In this document: piece after piece, positions 390 to 29,956 of the stretch
Position numbering within the stretch: position 1 is the first letter of the stretch
Layout: each line of letters begins with the position of its first letter
Assembly (NCBI GenBank): GCA_964478085.1
Contig: CAYZGY010000002.1
Span: forward strand, 1-33,102
Direction: 5' to 3'
Length of the DNA: 33,102 nucleotides
From: an uncultured Planctomycetia bacterium
GTDB taxonomy: Bacteria; Planctomycetota; UBA8108
Notes under the pieces: generated by a model
What the model saw: only the letters and a program-made list of their open reading frames with translations
Databases searched by the model: none
Told to the model about the DNA's origin: nothing
Made by a program: the position numbers and the translations under genes

Positions 390-1092
390 TCACCGCCGCG
401 GCCAATCGAGATGCCGCTCGAGAAACTCGAACGTCTTCTCCCCGCGGATGCTGTGCCCGCCCTGGAAGAACGTGATGTCGGTGCGATCCGCCAGCCCGTA
501 CTGCGCGTAGAGCCAGCGCACCTTCGCGTACTCGTGGGCGACCCAACGGTCTCTTCCGACGCGATCGTGATGTCCACGCTCGACCATGAAGGGACGCGGA
601 AAGATGAGGTAGGCCATCTCGGCGTAGTCGAAGGTCTGGCCGAGATTCCAGTCTCGCGATGGGCTCACCCTTCGGCCGGGCGAGGAGGCCCTCGCCCCAG
701 ACTCCGACGAGGACGGGCCATCGGACTTGGTAGATCGAGTAATTGGCCGTTTCGGCGACGAGCGATGGATTCTGTTCGTCGCCGAAAAACTCGAAACGCG
801 AGGGCTACCGCGTGTCGACCGCGCCGATACGCTCGCGGAGGTCGCGCCGGTTGAGCGCGACGGATCGTTCGTACGCCTCGCGGGAGGAGAAGTCGTGGTT
901 CCAGTGGCGTGCGCGTTTCCCGTGAGCCTCGGAGATCATCCTCTCGGCAAAGAGGTGCGCGCCGTCCATGAGCCGCGGCGACAGATCGCCCTCGGGCCAA
1001 TCGAGAGCCTGTGTTCCGGGGAGGGAACCTTGCGCGAGCAGCGTGATCGGCTGGATCGAAAACAACACGAAGAGTCCACGAATGAGCACCAT
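390..1092 (-). pseudogene. Remnant of a secreted alpha/beta-fold esterase (acetyl-xylan-esterase / dienelactone-hydrolase-like): in-frame TAG plus loss of the catalytic core
   Basis: ORF 805..1092 encodes a signal peptide and N-terminus (MVLIRGLFVLFSIQPITLLAQG...RERIGAVDTR) and stops at TAG 805..807. The same frame reads on over 804..661 as PSRFEFFGDEQNPSLVAETANYSIYQVRWPVLVGVWGEGLLARPKGEP. The reading then jumps frame into ORF 390..668 (RDWNLGQTFDYAEMAYLIFPRPFMVERGHHDRVG...FFQGGHSIRGEKTFEFLERHL), which is a typical C-terminus of this esterase type. No GxSxG nucleophile region lies between the two parts. Confidence 0.6.
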
Positions 1093-1176
1093 CGAACAAA
1101 CGTCTCGAAGAGTTTCTCTGATCCGAGCTGTTACACTGTGACCTACCGGTCCCTCGCCGACAGTCTACCTGCATCC

Positions 1177-1716
1177 ATGCCCCCGGAGGCCATCATGATC
1201 GTACCGCGACCTTCGCTTTCTGCCGCGCTACTCGTCACGTGCAGCCTCGTGTTCCTTCGTGACACACATTCCGAAGGCGACAACCGCACCGGCCCGGCAC
1301 CGCGACCCGACGAGTCGCAAGAGCCGTTCGCGATGCACTCGAAGATGTCGACGCGTCCCGGCATCCGCGTCGGGCAGAGCGACGAGCTGCTTCGTCGCAA
1401 TCGCGTGCTGCGAAACGGCGCCGACGGAGTCTTCTTCCGCAACGAGACGCTCGGCATGGCCGCGCATCGCAATCGGATCGAAGAGAACATCATCGAGGAC
1501 AACGGCACGAAGGAGCCGTCGGCGGGCATCCGCGTTCGTGGGGAGACGCACGGTCTCATCTTCAAAGGCAATACGATTCGTGATACACGTAGCGGTGACT
1601 CGCAGACGCAGACGACGGGAGTCCTCATCGAGAAGAGCGTCGGCAGGGTGAAGCTCGAGAAGAACAAGATCGAGGCGAAGAAACCGATCGACGACCGTCG
1701 AGGCGCGAAGAACTGA
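1177..1716 (+). CDS. Small exported protein with right-handed parallel beta-helix repeats (possibly an N-terminally deleted version of a larger protein)
   Basis: In-frame ATGs at 1177 and 1195 precede a hydrophobic segment (IVPRPSLSAALLVTCSLVFL). The C-terminal part, GIRVGQSDELLRRNRVLRNGADGVFFRNETLGMAAHRNRIEENIIEDNGTKEPSAGIRVRGETHGLIFKGNTIRDTR...GVLIEKSVGRVKLEKNKIE, shows the periodic N/G-rich turns of PbH1 beta-helix repeats. The first 450 nt of track ORF 727..1716 is only the antisense shadow of the esterase remnant. Confidence 0.5.
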   Translation: MPPEAIMIVPRPSLSAALLVTCSLVFLRDTHSEGDNRTGPAPRPDESQEPFAMHSKMSTRPGIRVGQSDELLRRNRVLRNGADGVFFRNETLGMAAHRNRIEENIIEDNGTKEPSAGIRVRGETHGLIFKGNTIRDTRSGDSQTQTTGVLIEKSVGRVKLEKNKIEAKKPIDDRRGAKN

Positions 1717-1717
1717 C

Positions 1718-3367
1718 GTGAAAGAGATCGACTGGGCCATCGTCTTCGTCCTCAACGTCGGCGTGATCCTCCTCGGGCTCTGGCTCGCACGCGGGACTCG
1801 CTCGAGCGATCAGTGGTTCCTCGCGGGACGCGCGCTGCCGTGGTGGGCGGTCGGTCTTTCGATGTACGCGACGAACGTCGACAACGCCGACCTCGTCTCG
1901 ATCACGAGCACCTCGTATCGAGAGGGCCTTCATATCATGATGGTTCACTCCTTCGGCTCCGTGCTCGCGAGCACCTTCGTCGCGTTCTGGTTCATTCCGG
2001 TGATCTACCGAGCGGGGCTCTACACGAACGCGGAGTACCTCGAGGCGAGGTTCGGGCGAACGACGCGCATCCTGTCGGCGCTGATTCAAATCCAGTACCG
2101 CACGAGCATGCTCGGGCTGATGATCTGGTCGATCTTTCTCCTCTTGAACGGTTTCGTCGGGCTCTCGGCGACGCTTGCGTGGACGCTGATCGTGGTGCTC
2201 GCGACCTTCGCGGCGATCTACACGGCGTGGGGCGGTCTTCGATCGGTCGTCTTCACCGATGCCGCGCAGGCGATCATCATTCTCCTCGGTGTCGCGGCGA
2301 TCCTCTTTGCGGTGTGGAACGAGGCCGGGGGCTGGTCGGGAATGACCGAGAAGCTCACGGCGCTCGACAAGATGGAGCTCGACAACGGACTCCGGCCTTC
2401 GGATCTGCCGCGCATGGGGAGCTATCGCGGAGACGACGGCAGCGAATCCCCGCTCGTCATCGCGGTCGCGTGGCTCCTCGTCGCGGGAGGCTACTGGACG
2501 GTCAACCACACCCAGACGATGCGGCTCATGGGCGCGCGAAGTCTCTGGGACATCAAGATGGCGGCGCTCGCCGGTGCGACGATCAGCATGCCGATCATGT
2601 TCGCGTCGGCAAGTCTGGGAATCTTCGGACGCGCACTGCATCCCGAGTTCGAGGATCCCGACAAGCTCTATCCGCATCTCGCGCACGTGCTTCTCGACGA
2701 CGGTACGCGAGGCCTCGTCGTCGCTGGAATCATCGCGGCGGCGATCAGTACCTTCGATTCGATGGGCTCGGCGCTCTCGGCGGTCTTCACGCGAGACATC
2801 TACGGCTTGTTTCGGCCGAATCGTGACGATGCGCACTACGTGCGAGTCAGCCGCATCGCGACGGTCGTCATCCTCGCCCTCGGCTTCGCGTACCTGCCGT
2901 TCATTCGATCGAAGGGGTCGATGCTGACGGCCTTCCTCACGCTGATCCCGGTCTTCGTCACGCCGCTCTTCACGGTCTACCTCGTCGGAGTCTTTACGCG
3001 TGCGCCGAGGATCAGCGGAATTGTGGGTCTCCTTGTCGGAGCGGCGTACGGCGTCATCGCCCTGGTGGACCGCGAGGTCGCGGACCTCGGACTGCCGAAC
3101 GGTTTCACGGGGCGTTGGGCCGCGTATCCGTGGTCGTTCGCGTTTACGTTCGTGACGATGATCATCGTCACGTGCGTCCGCGGACGTGAAGATCGGCGCG
3201 ATCTTGCGCTGGCATCATCTACCTGGTCGAAGACGGACCACGACAGCTCGGCGCACCTTCTCGAACATCCCTTCCGCGAAGGCGTGCCGACCCATCTGCG
3301 GCCGGGCCCGATTGCCATCGCCGTGATCGCGGTGACGGCGTACCTCGTCTTCTGGGTTTTTTGGTAA
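1718..3367 (+). CDS. Sodium:solute symporter family (SSF) transporter
   Basis: 549-aa ORF. GTG 1718 lies one nt after the upstream TGA, which suggests coupling. There are about 13 hydrophobic segments. The N-terminal region WFLAGRALPWWAVGLSMYATNVDNADLV...NAEYLEARFG is typical of the SSF (PF00474). Confidence 0.85.
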   Translation: MKEIDWAIVFVLNVGVILLGLWLARGTRSSDQWFLAGRALPWWAVGLSMYATNVDNADLVSITSTSYREGLHIMMVHSFGSVLASTFVAFWFIPVIYRAGLYTNAEYLEARFGRTTRILSALIQIQYRTSMLGLMIWSIFLLLNGFVGLSATLAWTLIVVLATFAAIYTAWGGLRSVVFTDAAQAIIILLGVAAILFAVWNEAGGWSGMTEKLTALDKMELDNGLRPSDLPRMGSYRGDDGSESPLVIAVAWLLVAGGYWTVNHTQTMRLMGARSLWDIKMAALAGATISMPIMFASASLGIFGRALHPEFEDPDKLYPHLAHVLLDDGTRGLVVAGIIAAAISTFDSMGSALSAVFTRDIYGLFRPNRDDAHYVRVSRIATVVILALGFAYLPFIRSKGSMLTAFLTLIPVFVTPLFTVYLVGVFTRAPRISGIVGLLVGAAYGVIALVDREVADLGLPNGFTGRWAAYPWSFAFTFVTMIIVTCVRGREDRRDLALASSTWSKTDHDSSAHLLEHPFREGVPTHLRPGPIAIAVIAVTAYLVFWVFW

Positions 3368-3407
3368 GGAACTGACTCGAGAGAGAATCCATAGAGGAGA
3401 AGTCACG

Positions 3408-4286
3408 ATGGCGACATCCGATCGAGCGAAGTCGGAGCATCGATACTGGAAGCTCACGTGGCCCGAGATCGAGGACGCGGTCGAGCTCGGCAAGGTGTGC
3501 ATCGTTCCGTGCGGAGCGGTCGAACAGCACGGGCATCACTTGCCGCTCGACGTCGACATCCTCTGCTCGACCGAGGTAGCCCTCGGCGGCGCGAAGGCGC
3601 GCGCGGAGAAGGCTCTCGTCTTGCCGTCTGTGAACTACGGCTACACGGGTCACGTGATGGACTTCCCCGGGACGATCAACAACGACTTCGAGACGTTCAT
3701 GCGCCACGTCCTCGACGTCACGAGGTCGCTCGCGTACCACGGCTTCAAGAAAATCATCCTCCTCAACGGCCACGGCTCGAACATGCCGAATCTCAACCTC
3801 GTCGCAAGACGCACAAACCTCGAGACCGACGCGGAGTGCATGCTGACGGCGTGGTGGGAGCTGCTGGCGGTCGACAAAGACTTCATGCCGAGCTGGCGCG
3901 AGAGCAAGTACCCGGGAGGTTGTGCGCACGCGTGCGAGCTCGAGACGTCGATGTACCTCTACCTGGACGAGGAGAACGTGCGGAAGGACCTGATCAAAAA
4001 CGGCACCATCTCCTTCAACGAAGAGAACAGCGACTTCAACTACGTCGACCTCTTCGCGCAGGGACCCGGCACGGTCGTCAGCTGGACGAGCAGCTACTCG
4101 GAGAGCGGCGTGCTCGGGGAAGCGGAACTCGCGACGAAAGAGAAGGGCAAGCGCGCCTACGACGAAGCGGTCAAGCAGCTCGCTCGCCTCATCGACGAGT
4201 TCCACGGAAGACCGAAAGACGAGCGGAAGGACCGACACCGGACCCCGCCGACGATGCCGATGCCGTGGAGGCAACGGCCGATTTGA
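3408..4286 (+). CDS. Creatininase-family amidohydrolase
   Basis: 292 aa. GGAGAAG lies upstream of ATG 3408. Family motifs are present: CGAVEQHGHHLPLDVD, LLNGHGSN, CAHACELETS (PF02633 metal and catalytic residues). Confidence 0.85.
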   Translation: MATSDRAKSEHRYWKLTWPEIEDAVELGKVCIVPCGAVEQHGHHLPLDVDILCSTEVALGGAKARAEKALVLPSVNYGYTGHVMDFPGTINNDFETFMRHVLDVTRSLAYHGFKKIILLNGHGSNMPNLNLVARRTNLETDAECMLTAWWELLAVDKDFMPSWRESKYPGGCAHACELETSMYLYLDEENVRKDLIKNGTISFNEENSDFNYVDLFAQGPGTVVSWTSSYSESGVLGEAELATKEKGKRAYDEAVKQLARLIDEFHGRPKDERKDRHRTPPTMPMPWRQRPI

Positions 4287-4330
4287 GCGTGCACTCGCGC
4301 AAATCCGAAGCTGAACCAAGGAGAAGAACG

Positions 4331-5386
4331 ATGACGCAGCGTCGCCTCATTCTCTCGGTCCTCGCGTTCCTCGTGCTACCGGTCGTGAGCGCCGTCGGAC
4401 AAGACCGACCGCGAGATCCAGTCGACGAGGTTCCGAAACGCGACGTGAAGATCGACGGCGACATCTCGCTCCACGTTCTCGAGCTTGGCGAAGGTGATCC
4501 GGTCGTCTTCCTCCACGGAGCGACCAGTGACGCGTACTTCTGGACTTACCAAATACAAGCCTTCGCGAGAGCGGGTTTCCGAGCGATCTCGTACAGCCGC
4601 CGCTACAACCACCCGAATCAAAACAAGCCGCAGCCGAACCACTCCGCCGTCGTCGATGCCAAGGACCTCGCGAGCCTCCTCGACAAGCTCGAGATCAAGC
4701 AAGCGCATCTCGGCGGCCACTCGTACGGAGCCTACTCCTCCCTCCTCTTCGCGCTCGAGCATCCCGACCGCGTCAAAACCCTGACGCTCGCGGAGGCTCC
4801 GATCGTTCCCTGGCTCGAGAACATGAAGGGCGACAAGGAAACGAAGGACGCGGCCAAAGCGCACTAAGACAAGGTCTGGAACGGGCTCGTCAAACCCCTC
4901 CGCAAGGTCTTCGAGAAGGAAGAATCCGAGACGAGCGACAAAGCGCTTCGCGCCTTCTACGACGCAGTCGTCCGCCCGAACGCCATCGACCGCATGCCAC
5001 CCCACATCGTCGCCCGCTGCCGAAGAAACCTCCCCGAGCTCAAAGCGATCATGACCTCGAAGACGCCATACCCGAAGGTCGCGAAAAAGGCGGTGAGGAA
5101 ACTCGAGATCCCGACGCTCCTCCTCTGCGGCAGCCGAACGACAGGAACGGAGAGGTATTCGGACGTCGAGCTCGAAAGGCTGCTGCCCGATGAAACGTCG
5201 CGGCGCGTCAACATCGAAGACGCTTCGCACATCATGTGGGTCGAGCAGCCGAGGAGGTGTCGGGAGGCGGTGTCGGGAGGCGGTGTTGAGGCTACTGCGG
5301 AGCTCCGCAACCGCCTCGGAACAGCCCCTACTCCCCAACGAGCCGCAGCGCCGCCTCCTTCACCATCGGCCCCACCGCCGGACTGA
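4331..5386 (+). pseudogene. Secreted alpha/beta-fold hydrolase interrupted by an in-frame TAA (4865..4867) and carrying a 13-bp duplication near the 3' end
   Basis: AAGGAG lies before ATG 4331. Present: signal peptide MTQRRLILSVLAFLVLPVVSAVG, oxyanion region VVFLHGATSD and nucleophile elbow GGHSYG. After ...KDAAKAH comes TAA, then the same frame continues DKVWNGLVKPL...LEIPTLLLCGSRT...NIEDASHIMWVEQP (catalytic His region). The current 3' end overlaps the convergent gene by 59 nt. Confidence 0.65.
5256..5281 (+). repeat. Perfect 13-bp tandem duplication (GGTGTCGGGAGGC x2, degenerate third copy follows)
   Basis: Read directly: ggtgtcgggaggc at 5256-5268 and again at 5269-5281, followed by ggtgttgaggc. 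13 is not a multiple of 3, so one copy shifts the reading frame of the hydrolase tail. Confidence 0.9.
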
Positions 5387-7097
5387 CCGACATCCCCTCC
5401 TCGTACGCCCCCGCGCGGTAGTCGTAACCCGGGACCATGTACCCCAGCTCGTCGTTCACGAGCCCGACGATCATTCGCGGGTAGCCCTTCATCTTCTCGA
5501 GAATCTCGAACGAGATCTCCGGCAGTAGCTCTCCCGGGATCGTGACGATCTCCGCTTCGCCGATGCGCAGGTGGAACATCTCGCTGACGACACGGCCTCG
5601 GTAGTACGGTCGGCGGTTGCCGCTCATGCGTTGGAAGATGAGGAGCTTGGGGTTGGTGACGGGGACTTCGATGCGTTGGCGTTGAAGCTTGAAGTGGTCG
5701 GACTGCGAAGGGGCGGCCTGGGTGCGGATCGCGAGGAGCGCGTCGGCGAAGGCTTTGCCGGCGGCTTTTGCTTCGGCGTGCGTGCGCGCTTTCGTGTCTC
5801 CCGAGACCATGCCGCCCAGGGCTCCGTTGAGGAAGATCGCCTGCGCACCCGTCTCCTTTTTCCATCGCTCGCAGAGGTAGCCCGGGAAGTCCGCGCTGAT
5901 CTCTTTCGCGCCCTTCTCGAGTCCTTCGGGGTGACATGCGAAGTGGAGGAGAGTCGCGATCGGCTTGCCGCCCTTGCCTCTCGCTTCTACGAGGGCGATC
6001 TGTGGATCGACGATTCCCGGGTTTCTCGCGTTTCGCATCAGGCCGTGGACTCGCGCGCCCGTGAGGAGGAGCTCGTCCGAGGACACGGCGACCTCTTCGA
6101 CGTCCTCGAGCTTCGCGAGCGCTTCGGTGACGACCTTCTCGATCTGAGTCTGGATGTGCGCGACGTAGTCCTTCGGGTAGTAGCCGTAGATTCCAATCGT
6201 GTCCGGCGCCGCGTGATTGTGCGACATGCCGACGATGAGCGCGGTGAGCCCGACCTTCTTCTTGAGCTCGGCCTCGATCGGATCGAACTCGCTCTTGAGC
6301 ATGCCGAAGAGGTCCGCTCCCACGATCGCGACCTTCTGACCGTCACGCTCGAAGACGACACACCGCGCCTTCATCGCGTCGTGGATCGTGAACTCGTCCT
6401 TGAACCACTTCGGATCGGTGGGGGAGATGTCGATCTCCGCGGCGCCCGCCTTGAGATTCGGCTTCGGCGGATTCTTCGCGCGCAGCGTCGGGCCTTGACG
6501 AAGGTGCGAAAGATCGATCTCTCGACGACAACCGTCGTGCACACGCGAGTAGCCGTGCGGAAAGTACGCCGTGCCGATCGTGCGGTAATTCGGGTCGAGC
6601 GTGAAACGCACACCCTTCGAGCTGTAGTCGAGCAGGACCTGTCCGCCGGCGTGCGTGAGCTTGAGCTCGGGATCGCCGAGCTTCGCCCGGATCTTCGCCT
6701 CGGTCTCGTAACCATCCGGGACGCTGACGGCTTCGATCGTTCCGATATGTCCATCCTCGGGACTTCCGAGAAGATGGAACGAATCGAAAAGGCCACTCTC
6801 CTTCGCCCGTACTCGCTTCGCCGCAGGTCCGACGGGCTCGTAGAGGAGCTTCCACGCGTACCACTTCGCTCGGTGCACCGGCTTGCCGATCTTCTCGCGC
6901 ACCTCTTCCATCGACGTCAGTCCCGGGGAGATGCCACGATACGTCACCTGGCGCCTCGGCGCGCCCTTCGCCGGGCCGCCCTTGACCGCCTGGGCGCGGA
7001 GGTCGACATCGACGGCCAAAAGCGCGAGGATTACCGTTCCGATGAAAGCAGTCGGGAACGAGAGAGGGGAGGGAAACGATCTTCGAGTCGTCATCAC
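5328..7097 (-). CDS. Exported neutral/alkaline-ceramidase-N-terminal-domain-like hydrolase with an extra N-terminal domain
   Basis: 589 aa with a signal-like start (FPTAFIGTVILALLAVDVDLRAQA). The core KARCVVFERDGQKVAIVGADLFG...LIVGMSHNHAAPD...LLHFACHPE...IFLNGALGGM resembles the ceramidase_alk N-domain (PF04734). Stop is TAG. Confidence 0.6.
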   Translation of the reverse strand: MMTTRRSFPSPLSFPTAFIGTVILALLAVDVDLRAQAVKGGPAKGAPRRQVTYRGISPGLTSMEEVREKIGKPVHRAKWYAWKLLYEPVGPAAKRVRAKESGLFDSFHLLGSPEDGHIGTIEAVSVPDGYETEAKIRAKLGDPELKLTHAGGQVLLDYSSKGVRFTLDPNYRTIGTAYFPHGYSRVHDGCRREIDLSHLRQGPTLRAKNPPKPNLKAGAAEIDISPTDPKWFKDEFTIHDAMKARCVVFERDGQKVAIVGADLFGMLKSEFDPIEAELKKKVGLTALIVGMSHNHAAPDTIGIYGYYPKDYVAHIQTQIEKVVTEALAKLEDVEEVAVSSDELLLTGARVHGLMRNARNPGIVDPQIALVEARGKGGKPIATLLHFACHPEGLEKGAKEISADFPGYLCERWKKETGAQAIFLNGALGGMVSGDTKARTHAEAKAAGKAFADALLAIRTQAAPSQSDHFKLQRQRIEVPVTNPKLLIFQRMSGNRRPYYRGRVVSEMFHLRIGEAEIVTIPGELLPEISFEILEKMKGYPRMIVGLVNDELGYMVPGYDYRAGAYEEGMSVSPAVGPMVKEAALRLVGE

Positions 7098-9651: not shown

Positions 9652-9882
9652 ATGACGACGACGAAGAAGAGCGCCCCGATGAACTACCGATTCTTCTCGA
9701 CCGCCCTGTGCCTCGCGACGCTCACAGTGGTCATCGGGTTCCCTTCCACGCTGTTCGCGCTCATCACCCTTGCCGTCCCGTGGTTCGGAATCGGCTACGC
9801 CGCCGGTGTGATCTACTACTACCCGTTCGTGCTCTTGGTGCTCGGGATGATCTCCGTGATCAAGGGCGTGCTCGAGGGGTGA
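9652..9882 (+). CDS. Small hydrophobic protein (2-3 predicted TM helices), unknown function
   Basis: 76 aa: MTTTKKSAPMNYRFFSTALCLATLTVVIGFPSTLFALITLAVPWFGIGYAAGVIYYYPFVLLVLGMISVIKGVLEG. Strong G/C third-position bias. Lies 62 nt downstream of the MMPL gene on the same strand. Confidence 0.5.
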   Translation: MTTTKKSAPMNYRFFSTALCLATLTVVIGFPSTLFALITLAVPWFGIGYAAGVIYYYPFVLLVLGMISVIKGVLEG

Positions 9883-10369
9883 GACGGCTCAAGCTCAAGA
9901 TCATGCTGACGCCGGCGCTCGCCCGTCGCGGCACTCACGGGTATCACGGGAACGCCCATCGAGACCGACTCGGCCTCGTCGATGAGCGCGTCGCGATCCT
10001 CGGGCACGTCGAGCTTGTTGAGCACGATCACAGGATCGGCACCGCAGTCCCACGTCGCGGTAAGGTAGCGTTCGATGCGGCGTGCGTTGAAGTCGCCGTC
10101 GAGCCCGCTGACAAGGAATACGGTGTCGACGTTGACCCGCCGCTCACGACGACCCAATCACCGACGGCGGGGAAGTCGCGCGCGCTTACCGCGTCGTGTC
10201 GCAGCCTGCCACTGATCTGCGCACCGGGCTCGTTCGCGCCGTCGTCGATCGTGAAGAGCTCGCGCTCCTCGAGAAAGACGCGTGCGGGTTAGGCGTCTTC
10301 GTATCCCGCGGCAAGCTCGCCAAAGGCCGCCTGAAGCTCGTCGTTCCAACCGAAGTCTTTGCGTATCAT
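9819..10369 (-). pseudogene. rsgA: Degraded ribosome small-subunit-dependent GTPase A gene
   Basis: ATG 10369 overlaps the DUF4416 stop (ATGA). The reading runs MIRKDFGWNDELQAAFGELAAGYEDA, then TAA (10289..10291), then in the same frame PARVFLEERELFTIDDGANEPGAQISGRLRHDAVSARDFPAVGDWVVV (OB-fold region). At about 10135-10145 there is a frame jump with loss of about 40-50 codons. It continues NVDTVFLVSGLDGDFNARRIERYLTATWDCGADPVIVLNKLDV...VIPVSAATGE (G4 NKxD region). Homology stops near 9915. The P-loop (GxSGVGKS), the rest of the GTPase domain and the zinc finger are absent. Confidence 0.7.
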
Positions 10370-10929: not shown

Positions 10930-10942
10930 GAACCTGTTCCTG

Positions 10943-11380
10943 TCACTCCCCGCGGAGCTTTCGAAGGCTCTTGAGGTCTTCGACATCTTTCGGACGCGCC
11001 GCGGCTTCCTTCATCGCGATCAACGCATCGAGACCAGCAAAACTCGCCGGGGTCTCACCAAACTTGTCCTCCACCCGCGTATCCCAAACGTCTGCGAACT
11101 CCATTCCCTTCACGAACGGATGAATATCCGTCGCCACGACGTACTGACGGATAAGGATCTTGTGCGTAAGAAGGTCCTCGACGCTCAGGTCCGTCACGTC
11201 GTATCCGAACTCTCGCAACGCGTTGAGAGTCTTCTCAGCGTTCGCCTGCGTCGGCTCGATGAAGACGTCGATGTCCAGAGTAGCGCGCGCGTAACCGTGA
11301 ATCGGGAAAGCGGTCGCCCCAATGATCACGTATCGGACTTCATTTGCGTTTAAGGATTTCAGTAGGCCTTCGATGTCCAT
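10943..11380 (-). CDS. Minimal nucleotidyltransferase-fold protein (DUF2204/MNT-like)
   Basis: 145 aa. EVRYVIIGATAFPIHGYARATLDIDVFIE fits the G-[GA]-x9-12-D-x-D pol-beta NTase signature. The C-terminus is GLDALIAMKEAAARPKDVEDL. GC is about 50-55 % against about 65 % in the flanks (hand count on sample blocks). Confidence 0.6.
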   Translation of the reverse strand: MDIEGLLKSLNANEVRYVIIGATAFPIHGYARATLDIDVFIEPTQANAEKTLNALREFGYDVTDLSVEDLLTHKILIRQYVVATDIHPFVKGMEFADVWDTRVEDKFGETPASFAGLDALIAMKEAAARPKDVEDLKSLRKLRGE

Positions 11381-16204: not shown

Positions 16205-16442
16205 CCGTCAACGACGTCGCGCTATCGGCCACGAGCTGGCCCCCGGAGGAGGTAAGCCATTGGACTTTCTGGATCGCTTACTTGCCCACGATGTCTGGAC
16301 GACGAAGGAGTTGCTTTCGCTCTGCCAAGGGATTGACCTGCCCCCGCAATCCGAGTCCAAACTCTTTGTCAGCACCGGGCCATAGACGCAAGTCAAAGCG
16401 AGATCGTGAATGCGCAGGCACTTTGCCTCTACCGCAAGAACC

Positions 16443-18389: not shown

Positions 18390-19151
18390 TCACTCGCGCC
18401 ACTCGGCGAGCGGCTCGCGGCAGTCGAGCCATTCGCTCGGGAGACCTTCCTCTCCGACGAACGCCGCGACGATGCCTCCGACGATCGCGCACGTCGTGTC
18501 ACGATCACCGAGAGCACTGACGGTATGCCACATCGCCTCCTCGAAGTCGCCGAGATTCTTGGCGGCGCTCCAGATCGTGAACGGGACGGTGTCGTGGCAG
18601 ATGACTCTCGTGCCATTGCCGAGAATTTCGACCGCCGAGCGCACCGACGTGTCCGGATCGAGCGTTCGCGCTCTCGCGATTCCCGCGCGCGTATCCGAAT
18701 CCGGCACGTGCGGGAGGACGAGCTCGATGAACTCGAGTACCGTCGGAGGATCTCCGCTGCCACTCAGCCGACACGCCCAGGCGGTCGCCACCGCGATCGC
18801 GATCGCTCCGGCGACGCCCTCTGGGTGAGCGTGCGTCACGACCGAGCTGCGCGTAGCTTCGTCGATGACCGCATCCATGTCTTCGCTGAACGCCGCGCCG
18901 ATGGGCGCAACACGCATCGCCGAACCGTTTCCGAACGAGCCCGTGCCCGCGAAGAGGCTTCGCGACGTTTCCGACCACGATTCGCCCTCACGGATGCGCG
19001 CGAGCGCCGAGTGCATCGCCGGCATCGCGCGCGTCGCGATCATGCGATCGACGAGATCGGGGTGGACGAAGAAGCGCTCGCCGAACGAGTCGCCGAGCGA
19101 AAGGCCATCGAGCGAGAGACGGGCCGCGTCGAGATTCGGAGAGGTCATCAA
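18390..19151 (-). CDS. ADP-ribosylglycohydrolase-family protein, atypically short and lacking the N-terminal [ST]DD[ST] metal-binding motif (possibly inactive)
   Basis: GSFGNGSAMRVAPIGAAF, VTHAHPEGVAGAIAIA, HDTVPFTIWSA and GDRDTTCAIVGGI are ARH (PF03747) hallmarks. No DDT or DDS occurs anywhere in the 253-aa product. The gap falls between ...IATRAMPA and MHSALARIREGESW. Confidence 0.7.
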   Translation of the reverse strand: MMTSPNLDAARLSLDGLSLGDSFGERFFVHPDLVDRMIATRAMPAMHSALARIREGESWSETSRSLFAGTGSFGNGSAMRVAPIGAAFSEDMDAVIDEATRSSVVTHAHPEGVAGAIAIAVATAWACRLSGSGDPPTVLEFIELVLPHVPDSDTRAGIARARTLDPDTSVRSAVEILGNGTRVICHDTVPFTIWSAAKNLGDFEEAMWHTVSALGDRDTTCAIVGGIVAAFVGEEGLPSEWLDCREPLAEWRE

Positions 19152-19809: not shown

Positions 19810-20479
19810 TTAGAGACCGACTCTCGCCTCGATCTTGAACGGAACCTCGACCGTCTTGAGATCCTTCCAGTACTTGATCTCTATTTTGGCGCTCGTGAGC
19901 TTTTTCTCCAGCAAGTAAGTGCTCATCGAGGTCGTCTTCGTTCCGAACGTCATGCTGCTCGATCCACTCGGCTTCGACGGAATCGGCTTTCCTTTCGAGT
20001 CGAGGAATCGGAGCGAATGGATGCCGCTCAGATCGTCCGTCGATTCGAACTCGATCTCGTATCCGCCGCCACCGAGCTGAGGCTTGCCCGCACGCGCGTT
20101 TCCAGGTCGTCGAGCCCATCTCGAAGGGTCCGCCGAACTTCTCCTTCACCAGGAGGTCGGAGCCCGTCGAGCCACTGAACTTCGTCACCTTCGACTTCTT
20201 GCGATCGAGCTCGATGATCCCGCCCTTGATGCCCGAGAGCACGACCGCGAGCGGCGTCCCGGGTCGCTGCCCGAGGAAGGCCTCCTGTTTGGCGTCCTTG
20301 TCGCTCGGAGTCGGAAGGTCGATCTCGCTGTTGACGAGAATGCCGACGACCGGGAAACGCGCGTGCGGGTTCTTGTCCTTGGCGCCGGCGGACGTGGCGG
20401 ACGTGGCGGACGTGGCGGACGTGACGCAGAGAAGCAACGCCGCCGCTGCGGTCAGAATCGAGAATCGCATGAATGTCAT
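19810..20479 (-). pseudogene. Exported (lipo)protein of unknown function, split by one frameshift at an A3 run
   Basis: The ATG at 20479 overlaps the M16B stop (ATGA). The N-terminal part is MTFMRFSILTAAAALLLCVTSATSATSATSAGAK...KEKFGGPFEMGSTTW. After 20099-20101 (coding-strand AAA) the track frame turns into Arg-rich nonsense. The +1 frame (hand translation) reads NARAGKPQLGGGGYEIEFESTDDLSGIHSLRFLDSKGKPIPSKPSGSSSMTFGTKTTSMSTYLLEKKLTSAKIEIKYWKDLKTVEVPFKIEARVGL, ending at TAA 19810..19812. Confidence 0.6.
20388..20423. repeat. Perfect 9-bp tandem repeat (GCGGACGTG)x4, in-frame (Thr-Ser-Ala)n in the minus-strand gene
   Basis: Read directly at 20388-20423. It encodes ...VTSATSATSATSAG... immediately after the signal/lipobox-like LLLC. 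Confidence 0.9.
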
Positions 20480-21933
20480 TCCTTCTCAGGCGCTTCGACG
20501 AGAATCAGCTCGCCATTTCGATCGCGATACTCCGGCTTCGGCAATCCGAGGTCGCCGGAGAGCGCCTCGTCGATCTTCTTGCGATCGCCGACGAGTACAA
20601 CGATCGCCTTCGACCAGTCAAGGGCGGCGCATACCTCGGTGAGGTCGTCCTCTTCGATACTTGAAATCTCCGAGTAGAACTTCTGACGCTCGTTAGGGCA
20701 CCACCCAGCGCCCATCGATTCCTCGTAGACTCGCAGCAGCGCAGTCTGTCTCTCCATCGCGCTGATGAGTCGACTGCGAATCGATGATTTCGCCTTCTCG
20801 AGCTCGCCCTCGCGTAGGGCGCCCGTTTCCATCGCCTCCAGCTCCTTGCGAAACTCGCGCAGTCCGAGAGCCGTAGCATCAGATTGGACCGACGAGTACG
20901 AGAGATGGTACGCGTCGGCGAGAAGTCGCGAGTTCAGGCTCCGCGCTCCGTACGTGATCTTCTTATCCTCGCGGAGATTCGAGTTGAGACGACTCGTGAA
21001 TGTGCCTCCGAGCACCGTGCTCGCGACCCACATCGAGGCGTTCTGCGAAGAGCTGAAACGCGTCCCCTCGTGGTAGATTCGAATCACAGTCTGTGGCGCG
21101 CGCGACTTGTCGACCACCACGAGGCGGCCCTTCGTGTGGGGCTGACGCGGAGGCATGCGGAACGGGTCCTCGGGCGCCGAGTAGGGCAGGTCGTCCTTGT
21201 GCGACCACCCGCCAAAGTGCTTTTTGAGCGAACTGTGCAGGCTCTCCGGAGCAACGGCACCTGTGACGAGAACCTGCGTCTTACTCGGCCTGAAGAACCC
21301 CCGCCACATCCCGCGCACATCGTCGAGTGTGATCGAGCTCACCGAGCTCTCGAATCCGTCAACGGGATGCGCGTAGGACACGCTGCCCGTGCTGAAGAAC
21401 ACGCGATCTCCGACGAGTCGAGCGACGGACGTCGCGCTTTCGCTGCGCTGGCGCACGTCGTTTAGCGTCAGAGCATGAACACGCTTCCACTCCTTCTCCT
21501 CGAAGCGCGGCCTGAGAACGACGTCCGAGAGAATCTCGAGGGCTTGGTCGAGGTTGCGACGAAGCGTCTGGATCGTGATCGTCGTGTAATCCTTCGAAGT
21601 ACGAAGCGAGAGCGACGCGCCGAGAAAATCGACCTCCTCGGCGAGCAAGAGGGCGTCGCGCTCGCCGGCTCCCTCGTCGAGCATGTCGGCCGTGATCGCC
21701 GCGAGACCCTCCTTGCCTTTCGGGTCGTAACTCGACCCCATGGAGACGAGAACACGAACAGTTACGAGCGGCACGTTGTTCGCCTCGAGAAACCAGACGC
21801 GAAGGCCGTTCGAGAGCTTCGATTCCGCAGGGATCGGAACGATCGAAGAATCCGACTCGCGCTGACCGAGACGACACCCGACAGAAGAGACGGAGAAGAT
21901 CACGAGCAGAGAAAGGAAAGTACGTCTCATCAC
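20476..21933 (-). CDS. M16-family peptidase, non-catalytic (M16B-like) subunit, exported
   Basis: 485 aa with a signal/lipobox-like start (LLVIFSVSSVGC). It has the two-domain insulinase fold pattern (LSNGLRVWFLEANNVPLVTVRVLV...) but no HxxEH motif. Its start overlaps the stop of the upstream M16 gene. Confidence 0.8.
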   Translation of the reverse strand: MMRRTFLSLLVIFSVSSVGCRLGQRESDSSIVPIPAESKLSNGLRVWFLEANNVPLVTVRVLVSMGSSYDPKGKEGLAAITADMLDEGAGERDALLLAEEVDFLGASLSLRTSKDYTTITIQTLRRNLDQALEILSDVVLRPRFEEKEWKRVHALTLNDVRQRSESATSVARLVGDRVFFSTGSVSYAHPVDGFESSVSSITLDDVRGMWRGFFRPSKTQVLVTGAVAPESLHSSLKKHFGGWSHKDDLPYSAPEDPFRMPPRQPHTKGRLVVVDKSRAPQTVIRIYHEGTRFSSSQNASMWVASTVLGGTFTSRLNSNLREDKKITYGARSLNSRLLADAYHLSYSSVQSDATALGLREFRKELEAMETGALREGELEKAKSSIRSRLISAMERQTALLRVYEESMGAGWCPNERQKFYSEISSIEEDDLTEVCAALDWSKAIVVLVGDRKKIDEALSGDLGLPKPEYRDRNGELILVEAPEKE

Positions 21934-23339
21934 TTTGCCTCCTCCTCGCTCTTCTCCTTCGGAAGAACGCTCAAAACGAGCCGCTTCTTCGCGTCGAGCA
22001 CCGTCGAGTACCTCTTCACCGATGCCGCGTCGACCTTCTCGAAACGCTCGCGATCCTTCGCGACGGCTCCGGGATCGTCGAAGTAGAACTGATAGCCGTT
22101 GAGAAGATCCGCCTTGCGCGCGAGGCTCTCGAGGTTTGTCCAGAAGCCCGTCTCCATCTTGTTGCGGGCACGGTCGACCTCACGCTTGGTCGGCCCCTCG
22201 GCTTGCAGCTTCGCGATCTCCTCGTCGACGAGCTTCTCGATCTCGGCGAGCTTCGCGCGGTTCTCGTCGTTCGAGGCGCCAGGGCGCGCGTAGACCTCGA
22301 TGCGAAACTCTCCACCGAGGAGACGCGAGTACTGGTAGACATCGACGCTCTGCGCGAGCTCCTTCTCGTAGACGAGCTTTCGGTAGAGCCGACTCGACTT
22401 TCCGCCACCGAGGACGTCGGCGAGGATGTCCATCTCGGCATCGCCCGCTTTGTAGAACGCCGGCGAGTGCCAGACGAGCGTCAGAAGCGGCAAGCGCACG
22501 GCGTCGAAGACCTCGCGCTGGACCGTATCCTCGAGCTTCGCGGGCTCGACCTTCGGGCGCACGAGCGCGGGGCGCTTCGGGAGCTTGCCGAAGTGCTTGT
22601 CGACGAGCTTCAGCGCCTCGTTCGAGTCGAAGTCGCCCGCGATGACGAGCGACGCGTTCCCGGCAAAGTAGAACCCGTCAAATTACATTTTTCCTAAAAC
22701 CTCCACGACGTCGTCCACACTCGCCGATTCTCGGTCCTCGTGCGAGCCGATCGTCGGCTCGCGATACGGATGCCCATCGGGATACATCGCCTTCGGAATG
22801 ACGAGCTGCGCACCGCCGTAGGGACGATTCTCGTAGTTTTGTCGGCGCTCGTTGCGCACGACGCCGCGCTGGACGTCGAGCTTCTCGAGCGTCATCGCCT
22901 TGCCGAGCCCGGCCATGCGGTCGGCCTCGAGGAAGAGGAAGAGGTCGAGAAGATCCGAAGGGCCCGTCTCGAAGTAGTTCGTGCGATCCGACGACGTCGT
23001 CGCGTTGTTGCTACCGCCACGGCGCTCCATGCGCGTGTCGAACTCGCCCGTCGGCACCTTCTCCGTCCCCATGAACATCAGGTGCTCGAAGAGATGCGCG
23101 AAGCCCGACCGCTTCGGTGGCTCGTCCTTCGCTCCGACGTAGTACCAGAGGTTGACCGAGACGAGCGGCAGTCGATGGTCTTCGTGAAGGATGACCGTCA
23201 GACCGTTGTCGAGACGCGTGCGCGTGAAGGGAATCTCCTGCGCGAACGCCGACGAGGCCGAGGTCGCCGAGAGGGCGGCGACGAACGCGACCGTCGCCAA
23301 GAATGGCACGCCGCGCCTTCGAGTTCTCTGTGCTTTCAT
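21930..23339 (-). pseudogene. M16-family zinc peptidase, catalytic subunit (HxxEH), interrupted by an in-frame TAA within an 18-nt AT-rich insertion
   Basis: ATG 23339 gives MKAQRTRRRGVPFLATVAFVAALSATSASSAFAQE (signal), then FAHLFEHLMFMGT (HxxEH) and NATTSSDRTNYF. The frame reads ...SHEDRESASVDDVVEVLGKM, TAA (22683..22685), then in the same frame FDGFYFAGNASLVIAGDFDSNEALKLVDKHFGKLPKRPALVRPKVEPAKLED..., joining track ORF 21930..22562. Confidence 0.7.
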
Positions 23340-27257: not shown

Positions 27258-28100
27258 ATGAACGCTCGGAACACGCTTCCCGTCGGTATCGCTGTTCTAG
27301 CTCTTCTCTGAGTTCCCTCGAACGGCGCGGCCGACTCGACAGACTCGATGCCCTGCGCGGATGTCGTCGACTGCCCCCACTCGACGACGCGCACCTGCGC
27401 AACGTGGAAGTACCACTTCGAGGCGGAGCCTGTCTCCGGACGACCGTGTTCTATCGAATCATCGGCTCGCCGGGCGACGAGAGCCCGATCTCGTTCTGCG
27501 ACACCGCCCTCGAGTGGCGTCGCCTCGCCATCCGTGTCAGACGAACGAGATCTACGCGAGGAACTTCAAGCCACGCGAGTCGTCGTTCCTGTCGCTGCTC
27601 CATGCCGGCGCGTCGATTCGCGTCGAGGACGGCCCCCCCTGTTCCGCCAGGATCGACGACGGATGCCACGACCCCTCCGTCGAACACGGCCGCTGAACCG
27701 GGCGCGTTTCGCCGAGGTGACGCCAACCTCGACGATCGACTCGACCTGAGCGACGCGAGCTACACGCTGAGCTATCTCTTCCTCGGTCGTCCGACATCTC
27801 TCGACTGCGAGGACGCGGCCGACTCGAACGACGACGGAACGGTCAAGGTGGCCGACGAGAGCTACACACTCGCGTACCTCTTCCGCGGCGCGACGCCACC
27901 GCCAGCTCCGCTCGATCATTGCACGATCGACCCGACCCCTGACGCGCTCACCTGCACGAGCTTCTCGCCCTGCGAGCCGGAGCCGGTTCCGCCGTCCTTC
28001 GGCGATCTTCCTCGGAGACTTCGACCGAGACGGCAGACTTGACGTCGCGACGTCGAGCTGGCAAGTAGAGACGCGCGTTTCGATGTATTTCTCTCGTTAA
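27258..28100 (+). pseudogene. Heavily decayed gene for an exported dockerin-like / FG-GAP-repeat protein (in-frame TGA, at least 4 frameshifts, 3' truncation)
   Basis: AGGAGG lies 7 nt before ATG 27258. MNARNTLPVGIAVLALL is followed by TGA (27309..27311). The same frame continues VPSNGAADSTDSMPCADVVDCPHSTTRTCATWKYHFEAEPVSG. Coding-like text (high GC3) then hops frames: TTVFYRIIGSPGDESPISFCDTALEWRRLAIRV, then QTNEIYARNFKPRESSFLSLLHAGASIRVEDGPPCSARIDDGCHDPSVEHG, then GAFRRGDANLDDRLDLSDASYTLSYLFLGRPTSLDCEDAADSNDDGTVKVADESYTLAYLFRGATPPPAP..., then FLGDFDRDGRLDVATSSWQVETRVSMYFSR, ending at TAA 28098..28100. Confidence 0.65.
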
Positions 28101-28125
28101 CCGGCTGACACGACCCGCAGATACC

Positions 28126-29166
28126 TTGACCGATCGCATCAACCGCCACTGGCGTCTCGCCGCTCACCCCGAAGGGCTCGCGAAAGCATCCGATTTCGAA
28201 TGGCGCGAGTCGCCCGTACGCACGCTCGAGGACGACGAGCTGCTCGTCCGCGTGCTCTACCTCTCGCTCGACCCGGCCACGCGCGCGTGGATCAGCGAGT
28301 ACGAGTCGTACGTCAAACCCGTGGCCGTCGGCGAGATCGTACGCGGCGCGACGATCGGCGAGGTGGTCGAGTCTCGGAACGCCCGGTTCGCCGCGGGCGA
28401 CATCGTCACGGGTGCGCTCGGTTGGCAGAGCTTCGGGATCTCAGACGGCAAAGGCCTCCTCAAGATCTCGAACGCGGCGCATTTGCCGATCCCGCTCAGC
28501 GACTGGTTCGCGGTCTTCGGACACGTCGGCCTGACGGCGTACGTCGGGCTTCTCGACATCGGCCAGCCGAAGAGCGGTGAGACGCTCGTCGTCTCGGCGG
28601 CGGCCGGCGCGGTCGGGTCGCTCGTCGGGCAGATCGGCAAGATTCACGGGCTACGCGTCGTCGGCATCGCGGGCGGCGAGGAGAAGTGCCGCTGGGTCAC
28701 GGAGGAGTGCGGCTTCGACGCGGCGATCGACTACAAATCGGAGGACGTGCCCGAACGTCTCAAAGAGCTCTGCCCCGACGGCATCGACATCGACTTCGAG
28801 AACGTCGGCGGTGAGATTCTCGAGGCGGTCATCGGCCGCCTCGCGCAGAACGCGCGAATCGTCCTCTGCGGCATGATCTCGCAGTACAACGTCACTGAGG
28901 CACCGCCGGGACCTCGCAACCTCGTCAACGTCTTGATGAAGCGTGGGCGTATCGAAGGCTTCATCGCGCTCGATCATTACGCGCGAGCACCCGAGGCCTT
29001 CCGCGATCTCGGGACGTGGTGCGCCGAGGGACGACTGATGTACCGCATGGACATCGTCGACGGGCTCGAAAACGCGCCCATCGCGCTCAACAAGCTCTTC
29101 GACGGGTCGAATCGTGGCAAGCTGATGATTCGCGTCGCCGAATCAGCGTCTTCGACGACCGGATGA
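28126..29166 (+). CDS. NADP-dependent medium-chain oxidoreductase (YncB/CurA, alkenal/one reductase - prostaglandin reductase family)
   Basis: 346 aa with a TTG start. Motifs: LYLSLDPATRAW, TAYVGLLDIGQPKSGETLVVSAAAGAVGSLVGQIGK (AxxGxxG NADP fold), IDFENVGG, NRGKLMIRV tail. Confidence 0.88.
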   Translation: MTDRINRHWRLAAHPEGLAKASDFEWRESPVRTLEDDELLVRVLYLSLDPATRAWISEYESYVKPVAVGEIVRGATIGEVVESRNARFAAGDIVTGALGWQSFGISDGKGLLKISNAAHLPIPLSDWFAVFGHVGLTAYVGLLDIGQPKSGETLVVSAAAGAVGSLVGQIGKIHGLRVVGIAGGEEKCRWVTEECGFDAAIDYKSEDVPERLKELCPDGIDIDFENVGGEILEAVIGRLAQNARIVLCGMISQYNVTEAPPGPRNLVNVLMKRGRIEGFIALDHYARAPEAFRDLGTWCAEGRLMYRMDIVDGLENAPIALNKLFDGSNRGKLMIRVAESASSTTG

Positions 29167-29167
29167 T

Positions 29168-29956
29168 TCACGCGGCGCAAGACGACGCGGCGTTCGTGCA
29201 ATCGTCGTCCTCGCTCGCGGCCTCGCATTCGGGGAAGGGTGCAGGCGGCGGAGAGCCGTTCTGAAACTTGAAGACGATGTTGTAGATCGCGTCGGAGCCG
29301 TCGACACGTCCGTCACCGTTGCAGTCGCCGGCCGGCGCGCAGGTCGAGGCAGCGCCGCCGCGGAAGAGCTCGTTGAAGATCCAGACGGCGTCGCCGATGT
29401 CGACGCGGACGGCGCGAGCTGCATCTCGAGAATCGTTCCCGTGCCACGCGTATCGAGCTCCACACGGTCGATGAGCGAGAGGACGACCGCGGAGACGACG
29501 CCGGGTCCTTGGTCGTTGAGGTCGGGATTGATGAGAAACGTCGCCTCGAAGCCGCGCGTGCGAAGGCCGCCGTCGTCAAGGTCGTCGCCCATCGTGCCGT
29601 CGCCCCGTCGCGTCAACGATGCTGAGACCTTCGGAGAGCGACACGCTCGGCGACCACGCGTAGACGCCAGGCTCATCGGGCGTCAATTGAGAGACGACAC
29701 CGACGAACATCGAAGCGACGCCTTCGGATGCGTCGATCCTCTTTTCGACGAGCGCGCGAGAGTCATCTGCGGCGTCACACGAGGACGTAGCCCCCGTGAA
29801 GACCTCGTTCGTCTGACCGTGGTTCTCCGTTTGGAAGATCACGGAGGTCGGATCGTCACAAATCTGTGCTGCGACCGGGCTCGATGCACCGCATGAAATC
29901 AGTACGGCTACGAGAGCGACCGCGCCTGGTTCGAATCTTCTCGACGACTTCGACAT
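29168..29956 (-). pseudogene. Lipoprotein with C-terminal dockerin-like repeat, split by two frameshifts at short homopolymers
   Basis: ATG 29956 gives MSKSSRRFEPGAVALVAVLISCGASS (lipobox LISC), continuing ...SVSLSEGLSIVDATG. Frame change at the C4 run 29603-29606. Then DGTMGDDLDDGGLRTRGFEATFLINPDLNDQGPGVVSAVVLSLIDRVELDTRGTGTILEMQLA. Frame change near 29405-29420. Then (hand translation) VRVDIGDAVWIFNELFRGGAASTCAPAGDCNGDGRVDGSDAIYNIVFKFQNGSPPPAPFPECEAASEDDDCTNAASSCAA, ending at TGA 29168..29170. Confidence 0.6.

What the first reader, a model, noticed from the sequence alone, without database searches (positions are those of the whole stretch)
390..29956. Mosaic of flawless long ORFs and about ten decayed genes: lesions are clustered, not random
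Broken genes seen in the sequence:
- 390-1092: TAG plus loss of the catalytic core.
- 4331-5386: TAA plus a 13-bp duplication.
- 9819-10369: TAA, internal deletion and 3' truncation.
- 18390-19151: loss of the N-terminal metal motif.
- 19810-20479: one frameshift.
- 21930-23339: 18-nt insertion carrying TAA.
- 27258-28100: TGA, at least 4 frameshifts and truncation.
- 29168-29956: two frameshifts.
- Probable remnants at 1177-1716 and 16260-16385.

In contrast, about 23 kb of other coding sequence has no lesion. This includes the 2.6-kb glycosidase, 2.4-kb MMPL, 2.2-kb GspE and 1.9-kb helicase genes. Roughly 17 lesions in about 6.5 kb against none in about 23 kb is hard to reconcile with uniformly distributed consensus errors. 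It looks like genuine relaxed selection on a subset of genes. Most are exported hydrolases and dockerin-type exoproteins, but a normally conserved ribosome-assembly GTPase is also hit. Such density is more typical of a lineage after a recent lifestyle restriction or bottleneck than of a free-living GC-rich heterotroph.
Basis: partly seen in the sequence, partly recalled or inferred. Interest (0 to 1): 0.7.

Follow-up and report, generated by a model that had tools for sequence, protein, structure and literature searches.

The report
Real pseudogene cluster in a planctomycete
About eight genes in this 33-kb stretch of an uncultured planctomycete chromosome are truly broken; seven are broken identically in many independent metagenome assemblies, so this is ordinary but unusually dense gene decay, not sequencing error.

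Summary
All eight main loci carry the lesions described, at the stated coordinates. I checked them against full-length homologues, a codon-usage frame model, or both.

Seven loci are base-for-base identical in 6-17 other public assemblies of the same population. These come from at least 8 libraries and three assembly pipelines and are 99.6-100% identical to the window. Consensus error is therefore excluded, and these lesions are fixed at consensus level.

The eighth lesion, the TAA in peptidase M16A, is private to the window. It is a 15-nt AT-rich insertion plus about 9 substitutions within 60 nt. Four assemblies have the intact gene, and four more contigs end exactly there. It is either a polymorphic allele or a local mis-assembly.

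Two corrections. The "one frameshift" gene has lost about 60 codons. The RsgA fragment is divergent and is absent from the same site in the closest relative, so loss of the housekeeping GTPase is not shown.

The nearest relative (67% identity) has a compact, fully intact syntenic backbone. The 16 kb flanking the window holds 2-3 further remnants.

Relaxed selection on mainly exported or accessory genes is supported. A lifestyle shift or bottleneck remains untested. This is ordinary biology at an unusual density.

The parts
390..1092 (-). Pseudogene of a dienelactone-hydrolase/S9-like secreted esterase. TAG at 805-807, loss of about 150 residues including the GxSxG nucleophile, frame change at about 649-656.
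   Evidence: Translations. Full-length homologues are 371-379 aa. Alignment A2. Identical in L005-L008, L012 and L114.
1177..1716 (+). Short (173-179 aa) right-handed beta-helix ORF with a signal-like N-terminus. Remnant status is not established.
   Evidence: Pfam Beta_helix positions 23-111 of 158. Single frame in the codon model. Called as a gene in all assemblies.
4331..5386 (+). Alpha/beta-hydrolase pseudogene. TAA at 4865-4867, and a frameshifting 13-bp tandem duplication within 5251-5286.
   Evidence: Homologues are 300-312 aa. Alignment A1. TRF. Truncated 178-aa product called in 7 assemblies.
9819..10369 (-). RsgA-like GTPase remnant. TAA at 10289-10291, deletion of about 30 residues plus frame change near 10136-10145, truncated after G5 (about 9918). 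No P-loop or zinc finger. A 76-aa membrane ORF (9652-9882, + strand) overlaps its end.
   Evidence: Pfam RsgA_GTPase positions 21-98 of 174. PDB RsgA residues 121-194 of 350. Alignment A3. Identical in L001, L005-L010.
16263..16334 (+). Possible DinB-like helix-1 remnant in the helicase-enolase spacer. Unconfirmed.
   Evidence: Translation only. No Pfam hit. The spacer is about 100 nt longer than in L019.
18390..19151 (-). ADP-ribosylglycohydrolase with an in-frame 47-residue deletion (junction about 19002-19037) that removes the TDDT metal-binding motif. The ORF is still open.
   Evidence: Pfam covers only positions 90-287 of 287. Alignment with the L019 and L022 orthologues. The 252-aa product is called in all assemblies.
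19810..20479 (-). Pseudogene of an uncharacterised secreted protein family (265-280 aa). About 60 residues are deleted, with a frame change at about 20088-20093.
   Evidence: GC3 and codon model. Representative search. Alignment A4. Identical apart from 1 SNP in at least 8 assemblies. No gene at this site in L019.
21930..23339 (-). Peptidase M16 (HxxEH) interrupted by TAA at 22683-22685, inside a window-private patch at 22675-22732 (15-nt AT-rich insertion plus about 9 substitutions).
   Evidence: Intact 464/451-aa gene in L116-L119. Four contigs end inside the patch. Truncated product not on record.
27258..28042 (+). Heavily decayed dockerin-type exoprotein. Signal peptide, TGA at 27309-27311, at least 3 frame switches, C-terminal double dockerin-like repeat. 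Window-private in-frame patch at 27837-27904.
   Evidence: The codon model scores 27035-28137 as non-coding. Shared by L013-L018.
29168..29956 (-). Dockerin-type exoprotein pseudogene with two frame switches (about 29604, consistent with a +1 G in a G4 run, and about 29412-29430).
   Evidence: Weak Pfam Dockerin_1 hit (E = 0.006). Identical apart from 1 SNP in L013-L018.

Best explanation
The window is a chromosomal segment of an uncultured member of the Planctomycetia. Between intact genes it carries seven genuine pseudogenes, fixed in the sampled population, plus one lesion seen only in this assembly.

The pseudogenes are at different stages of decay:
- Young: the alpha/beta hydrolase, the ADP-ribosylglycohydrolase and the RsgA-like fragment still keep nearly all family-invariant residues.
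- Old: the 27258-28042 exoprotein has lost almost all codon signal.

The lesion types are nonsense substitutions, a short tandem duplication, a likely homopolymer slip, and above all internal deletions of 30-150 codons. This is the usual spectrum for genes that are no longer under purifying selection in a bacterium with a deletional mutation bias.

Most affected genes encode exported or accessory functions: esterases, dockerin-type exoproteins and a secreted protein of unknown function. Several lie at positions that are empty in the closest relative. The likely process is therefore turnover of dispensable or redundant secreted-enzyme paralogues and acquired genes.

Shown: the lesions, their reproducibility across assemblies, and the intact state of homologues and neighbouring genes. 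Inferred: relaxed selection, and why these particular genes became dispensable.
For: - Reproducibility: 30 loci from ENA, JGI and Logan assemblies of at least 8 libraries are 99.6-100% identical to the window. They carry the same lesions at seven loci.
- Lesions verified against full-length homologues: A1, A2, A3, A4 and the ARH alignment.
- Frame switches are supported by the GC3 plot and a codon-usage Viterbi path.
- There are two to four independent lesions in five of the genes.
- The neighbouring roughly 23 kb is intact by Pfam coverage and by end-to-end orthologue alignment.
- The closest relative, L019, has 9 syntenic genes that are compact and intact. It has no gene where the window has the decayed secreted protein or the RsgA fragment.
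- The flanks add a sigma-54 activator remnant, a dockerin stub and a split TPR gene.
- Clustering by gene: P = 0.004-0.014.
Against: - No reads were available, so fixation is shown only at consensus level.
- The libraries may come from one site or project, so they are not fully independent samples of the species.
- The M16A lesion is not reproduced anywhere and may be an assembly artefact.
- The two frameshifts at 29168-29956, and the lesions at 27258-28042, rest on codon statistics and motifs, not on full-length homologues.
- Loss of function and lack of expression were not tested. The ARH deletion leaves an open reading frame that could still make a protein.
- The gene content of the ancestor is known from only one syntenic relative.
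Confidence: 0.8

Rival explanations
1. The lesions are assembly, polishing or consensus artefacts of this one sequence.
For: - The M16A patch (22675-22732) and the dockerin patch (27837-27904) occur only in the window.
- The truncated M16A product is on record nowhere.
- The comparator scaffolds themselves show clusters of mismatches next to 10-N gaps.
Against: - Seven of the eight loci are identical in 6-17 other assemblies made by three pipelines from at least 8 libraries.
- The lesions include nonsense substitutions and deletions of 30-150 codons, which are not typical sequencing errors.
- Lesions cluster by gene.
Confidence: 0.05
2. The lineage is undergoing genome-wide reductive evolution after a bottleneck or lifestyle restriction, and the window is a typical sample of a genome with about 20-25% pseudogenes.
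For: - There are 8-10 decayed genes among about 30 in the window.
- There are 2-3 further remnants in the 15.8 kb of flanks.
- The population is nearly clonal across libraries, with about 1 SNP per 10 kb.
- The syntenic 12.5 kb of the closest relative has no lesion.
Against: - Only about 49 kb of one genome region was seen.
- GC is 63% with strong GC3, and there are no IS elements or transposases.
- Large transporter, secretion, helicase and peptidase genes are intact.
- The only 'housekeeping' casualty, RsgA, is a divergent fragment at a site where the relative has no gene.
- Several victims are lineage-specific genes, which fits ordinary accessory-gene turnover.
Confidence: 0.15
3. The interrupted genes are expressed by programmed recoding (stop-codon read-through or reassignment, programmed frameshifting), or are conserved functional split genes.
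For: The open reading frames on either side of some lesions keep family-invariant residues. Internally shortened versions of the esterase family exist in other organisms.
Against: - All three stop codons occur as lesions (TAG, TAA, TGA), and all are also used as normal terminators here.
- Lesions come together with deletions that remove catalytic motifs: GxSxG, TDDT and the P-loop.
- The shortened esterase homologues have different deletion boundaries, so they are independent decay events and not a conserved form.
Confidence: 0.02
4. The M16A lesion specifically is a real minor allele (a polymorphic pseudogene or short recombination tract) that coexists with the intact allele, not an artefact.
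For: - Four independent contigs (L120-L123) terminate within the same roughly 50 nt. That is what a branch in the assembly graph produces.
- L003/L119 has further SNPs just upstream, at 22752 and 22759.
- The window's other private patch is in frame and gives a more canonical dockerin motif, so it looks biological.
Against: - The allele is seen in no other assembly, and its truncated product is not on record.
- No donor sequence or template-switch source was found.
- An AT-rich 15-nt insert in a 63% GC gene is odd.
Confidence: 0.55

Closest known systems
Bacterial pseudogenes formed by relaxed selection with a deletional bias (general phenomenon; from my own knowledge: Mira, Ochman & Moran 2001; Liu et al. 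2004 on decay of acquired genes)
   Same: Homology to functional families continues across disabling lesions. There are multiple independent lesions per gene. Internal deletions dominate. The victims are enriched for accessory or lineage-specific genes. Intact neighbours remain under selection.
   Different: The local density (about a quarter of the genes over about 49 kb) is far above the 1-5% usual for free-living bacteria. The organism is an uncultured planctomycete with no published pseudogene census that I could find.
Genome-wide reductive evolution in recently host-restricted bacteria (Mycobacterium leprae, Sodalis, Shigella; from my own knowledge)
   Same: High pseudogene density and a near-clonal population.
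   Different: There is no IS expansion, no drop in GC, and no demonstrated loss of core genes. Only one region was seen. The host or environment is unknown.
Apparent pseudogenes caused by sequencing or assembly error (long-read homopolymer indels, scaffold-gap artefacts)
   Same: One lesion (M16A) and one patch are private to this assembly. One frameshift sits in a G4 run.
   Different: Seven loci are reproduced exactly in many independent short-read assemblies. Lesions include nonsense codons and large deletions.
Loss of secreted 'public-good' enzymes (the Black Queen idea; from my own knowledge)
   Same: Most casualties are exported hydrolases or dockerin-type exoproteins, whose products could be supplied by neighbouring cells.
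   Different: Nothing here shows that loss was selected rather than neutral. Other exoproteins in the same region are intact: the 990-aa dockerin/Big_7 protein, the GH+CBM6 enzyme and the sulfatase.

Membership tests
Pseudogene (decayed protein-coding gene) | Recognisable homology to a functional protein family on both sides of the lesion | tested here: met
   Pfam or homologue matches for 390-1092, 4331-5386, 9819-10369, 18390-19151, 19810-20479 and 21930-23339. For 27258-28042 and 29168-29956 there is only a dockerin-type motif plus a signal peptide.
Pseudogene (decayed protein-coding gene) | Disabling lesion relative to intact homologues (premature stop, frameshift, loss of catalytic motif) | tested here: met
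   Alignments A1-A4 and the ARH alignment. Codon-model frame switches.
Pseudogene (decayed protein-coding gene) | The lesion is in the organism's DNA, not an artefact of one assembly | tested here: met
   Met for seven loci, which are identical in 6-17 other assemblies. Inconclusive for M16A, which is private to the window.
Pseudogene (decayed protein-coding gene) | No functional product (not expressed, or product inactive) | not testable with these tools
   Needs transcriptomes, proteomes or enzymology. Inferred only from the loss of GxSxG, TDDT and the P-loop.
Genome-wide reductive evolution / recent bottleneck | High pseudogene fraction across the whole genome | tested here: inconclusive
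   Only +/-10 kb of flanks could be reached. They hold 2-3 further remnants in 15.8 kb. The rest of the genome was not seen.
Genome-wide reductive evolution / recent bottleneck | Proliferation of IS elements or transposases | tested here: not met
   No transposase or IS family among the Pfam results for any ORF of the window.
Genome-wide reductive evolution / recent bottleneck | Loss of conserved housekeeping genes | tested here: inconclusive
   The RsgA fragment is decayed, but its best homologues are 42-48% identical and from other phyla. The site is empty in the syntenic relative. A second, intact rsgA elsewhere cannot be excluded.
Genome-wide reductive evolution / recent bottleneck | Compositional drift towards AT / weakened codon bias | tested here: not met
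   GC is 58-67% along the window, and GC3 is 0.75-0.9 in intact genes.
Programmed recoding (read-through, reassigned stop, programmed frameshift) | A single stop codon type or a conserved slippery site, with the full-length product conserved in relatives in the same interrupted form | tested here: not met
   TAG, TAA and TGA all occur as lesions. Homologues are uninterrupted. Lesions are accompanied by deletions.

The most novel reading that the evidence does not exclude
This nearly clonal planctomycete population may be in an early stage of genome-wide gene decay, with about a fifth or more of its genes pseudogenised. The decay would start with exported enzymes, for example after a shift to a dependent, particle- or host-associated way of life. 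It would be a rare example of reductive evolution caught early in a high-GC, normally large-genome, free-living phylum.
Probability: 0.12. Interest if true: 0.6.

Novelty: new member of a known kind. Interest (0 to 1): 0.35.

Why it matters
For annotation, these loci should be labelled as pseudogenes. Public gene calls currently list them as short 'hypothetical proteins' (fragments of 92, 95, 112, 177, 178, 231 and 285 aa), which pollutes protein databases.

For biology, a quarter of the genes being broken over about 49 kb is well above the norm for free-living bacteria. If the rest of the genome looks the same, this population would be a useful natural case of early gene loss centred on secreted enzymes. 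If not, it is simply a decaying accessory region. A genome-wide scan of contigs and reads that are already public would settle the matter.

Tried and rejected
- The metagenome scan with the enolase-superfamily protein returned 80 loci. All were at most 71% identical and none was syntenic, so it did not help.
- The genome scan found no genome of the same species. The best hit was 67% identical.
- I looked for a donor or template-switch source for the M16A and dockerin patches and found none.
- Looking up the window's truncated M16A product found nothing on record.
- Pfam on the 16263-16334 'DinB-like' peptide, on the middle pieces of the two dockerin pseudogenes and on the 76-aa membrane ORF gave no hits.
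- The PDB search with the esterase fragments gave only a marginal hit.
- The split malectin gene in L013 turned out to be a 10-N scaffold gap, not a polymorphic pseudogene. The different gene lengths in L014 have the same cause.
- Literature searches for the sample accessions and for planctomycete pseudogenes found nothing. My guess that the samples are from the Cariaco Basin could not be verified, so I do not rely on it.
- No tRNA or Rfam family marks an island boundary.
- The first low-penalty codon model was too noisy to count frameshifts. I replaced it with a stricter one.
Full report
**What the window is.** The window is 33.1 kb at about 63% GC, with strong third-position GC periodicity. 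This allows coding frames to be read directly. Pfam assigns about 20 full-length genes:
- a sodium:solute symporter and a creatininase-family amidohydrolase;
- an MMPL transporter, DUF4416, and a DUF6036 nucleotidyltransferase;
- an arylamine N-acetyltransferase and a response-regulator-GspE ATPase;
- an enolase-superfamily enzyme, an SF1 helicase and an isochorismatase;
- peptidase M16, a GH (MGH1-like) enzyme with CBM6, a zinc-type dehydrogenase, a PIN domain protein, a VWA protein, and the start of a sulfatase.

The closest genomes are uncultured Planctomycetia/Planctomycetota MAGs. The best has a helicase 67% identical to the window's.

- **390-1092 (-).** This matches a family of 371-379-aa DLH/S9-type hydrolases. 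In alignment A2 the TAG at 805-807 replaces a conserved Leu. About 150 residues, including the GLSYGG nucleophile, are absent, and the reading frame changes at the junction.
- **4331-5386 (+).** This matches 300-312-aa alpha/beta hydrolases. The TAA at 4865-4867 lies in a well-aligned column. Deleting one copy of the 13-bp tandem repeat (TRF: 2.8 copies, 5251-5286) restores the family's conserved C-terminal helix.
- **9819-10369 (-).** This is an RsgA remnant. It has a TAA where homologues have Leu or Phe, and about 30 residues are missing between the OB fold and the G4 motif, with a frame change. It ends after G5, so the P-loop, G2/G3 and zinc finger are gone.
- **18390-19151 (-).** This is an ADP-ribosylglycohydrolase with a clean in-frame 47-residue deletion that removes the TDDT metal motif. 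The motif is present in the orthologues of two relatives.
- **19810-20479 (-).** This belongs to an uncharacterised family of 265-280-aa secreted proteins. Its two halves lie in different frames but match one protein, and about 60 residues between them are missing. The lesion is therefore a deletion with a frame change, not a single-base shift.
- **27258-28042 (+).** This has a signal peptide, a TGA at codon 18, at least three frame switches, and a C-terminal dockerin-type double repeat. The codon model scores the region as non-coding, so this is the oldest wreck.
- **29168-29956 (-).** This has a signal peptide and a dockerin repeat in one frame and its middle part in another. Removing one G from a G4 run at about 29604 restores the upstream frame, which points to a +1 G insertion there.
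- **1177-1716 and 16260-16385.** These suggested remnants could not be confirmed.

**Are the lesions real?** Exact-protein look-ups returned 30 loci from ENA, JGI and Logan assemblies of at least 8 libraries. All are 99.6-100% identical to the window. Seven of the eight lesion loci are identical in every assembly that covers them. The public gene calls accordingly show the same fragments (178-aa hydrolase, 112-aa RsgA, 252-aa ARH and so on). Consensus error is therefore excluded, and the lesions are fixed at consensus level in the sampled population. A non-circular occupancy test also rejects uniform scatter (P = 0.004-0.014).

**The M16A exception.** The window differs from all other assemblies in a 60-nt patch at 22675-22732. 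The patch has about 9 substitutions and a 15-nt AT-rich insertion (TTAGGAAAAATGTAA) that carries the stop.
- Four assemblies have the intact 464/451-aa gene.
- Four further contigs end inside this patch, all with intact-type bases. This suggests a branch in the assembly graphs at this point.
- The truncated product is recorded nowhere, and no donor sequence was found.

The patch is either a minor allele or a local mis-assembly, and only reads can decide. A second window-private patch (27837-27904) is in frame and changes one dockerin repeat to a more canonical form.

**Context.** The closest relative, L019, has the backbone M16A - M16B - isochorismatase - ARH - helicase - enolase - NAT - DUF4416 - MMPL. 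It is compact and intact. In the window this backbone is interrupted by several elements:
- the decayed secreted-protein gene;
- the intact GspE gene;
- a nucleotidyltransferase gene;
- the RsgA fragment together with a 76-aa membrane ORF.

So several casualties are lineage-specific or sit at sites where the relative has no gene. The RsgA fragment's best homologues are only 42-48% identical and come from other phyla. Loss of the housekeeping copy is therefore not demonstrated.

**Flanks.** I could reach 6.6 kb upstream and 9.2 kb downstream. The large genes there are intact, but the uncalled gaps hold more debris:
- a sigma-54 activator remnant (the tail of the AAA+ domain and HTH_8, in different frames);
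- a stub consisting of a signal peptide and a first dockerin repeat;
- a TPR gene whose signal-peptide part lies in another frame.

The upstream flank is identical in two assemblies. Decay therefore does not stop at the window's edges.

**Interpretation.** The best explanation is ordinary pseudogenisation under relaxed selection with a deletional bias. It mostly affects exported or accessory genes, in a nearly clonal planctomycete population. Several points argue against advanced reductive evolution: high GC, no IS elements, and intact large genes. The density (about a quarter of the genes over about 49 kb), the clonality, and the intact state of the relative keep a genome-wide process possible but untested. 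Recoding is rejected. All three stop codons occur as lesions, homologues are uninterrupted, and catalytic motifs are physically deleted.

**Verdict.** This is a known kind of feature at an unusual local density, and the interest is modest unless a genome-wide scan shows the same load.

Noticed in passing
L005/L006 1240-1570 (about 5350 to 5030 nt upstream of window position 1): Remnant of a sigma-54-dependent (NtrC-type) activator. Only the last 40 positions of the Sigma54_activat domain and an HTH_8 domain remain, in different frames. It is identical in two assemblies.
   Followed up: partly
L005 about 1800-2000 (about 4790 to 4600 nt upstream of window position 1), minus strand: An ORF stub with a signal peptide followed by 'FLRGDANDDGRVS', a first dockerin-type repeat, and then nonsense. 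It is probably another truncated dockerin exoprotein.
   Followed up: no
L115 about 2710-3590 (about 5.6-6.5 kb beyond the window end), minus strand in window orientation: An uncalled 193-residue TPR_12/TPR_10 open frame, with a signal-peptide-like piece just upstream in a different frame. It lies inside a 1.1-kb 'gene-less' gap and is a candidate frameshifted gene.
   Followed up: partly
window 27837-27904: A window-private, in-frame patch of 9 substitutions changes one dockerin repeat from DDESLNVADATY (all other assemblies) to the more canonical DDGTVKVADESY. It looks like gene conversion from a paralogue, or a strain variant.
   Followed up: partly
Proteins P0123, P0124, P0125, P0127 (homologues of window 390-1092): Four homologues of the esterase from other organisms are also internally shortened. 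Their deletion boundaries differ, and some lose the nucleophile. This family seems to decay repeatedly, or to be mis-assembled.
   Followed up: no
window 12518-14713 (-): An intact fusion of a response-regulator receiver domain to a GspE/T2SSE secretion ATPase. It is absent from the syntenic position in the closest relative, L019.
   Followed up: no
window 9652-9882 (+): A 76-aa, very hydrophobic ORF with GC3 of 0.88 overlaps the truncated 3' end of the RsgA remnant. It is called in all assemblies and has no family match.
   Followed up: no
window 29866-30651 (+): The PIN-domain ORF is open for 113 codons upstream of the called 148-aa gene and has no separate antitoxin ORF. Together with the DUF6036 nucleotidyltransferase at 10943-11380, this gives the region an accessory, toxin-antitoxin flavour.
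   Followed up: no
L001/L007 (window 12594-12686), L011 (window 6345-6363), L013 16513, L014 3392-3401: The third-party 'SUTE22-1' scaffolds contain 10-N gaps flanked by clusters of mismatches. These create false gene differences: a 686-aa GspE without Pfam hits, a split malectin gene and a 717-aa GH. They are comparator artefacts, not biology.
   Followed up: yes
window 20387-20423: A perfect 9-bp x 4.1 tandem repeat encodes (SAT)n within the signal-peptide region of the decayed secreted-protein gene.
   Followed up: no
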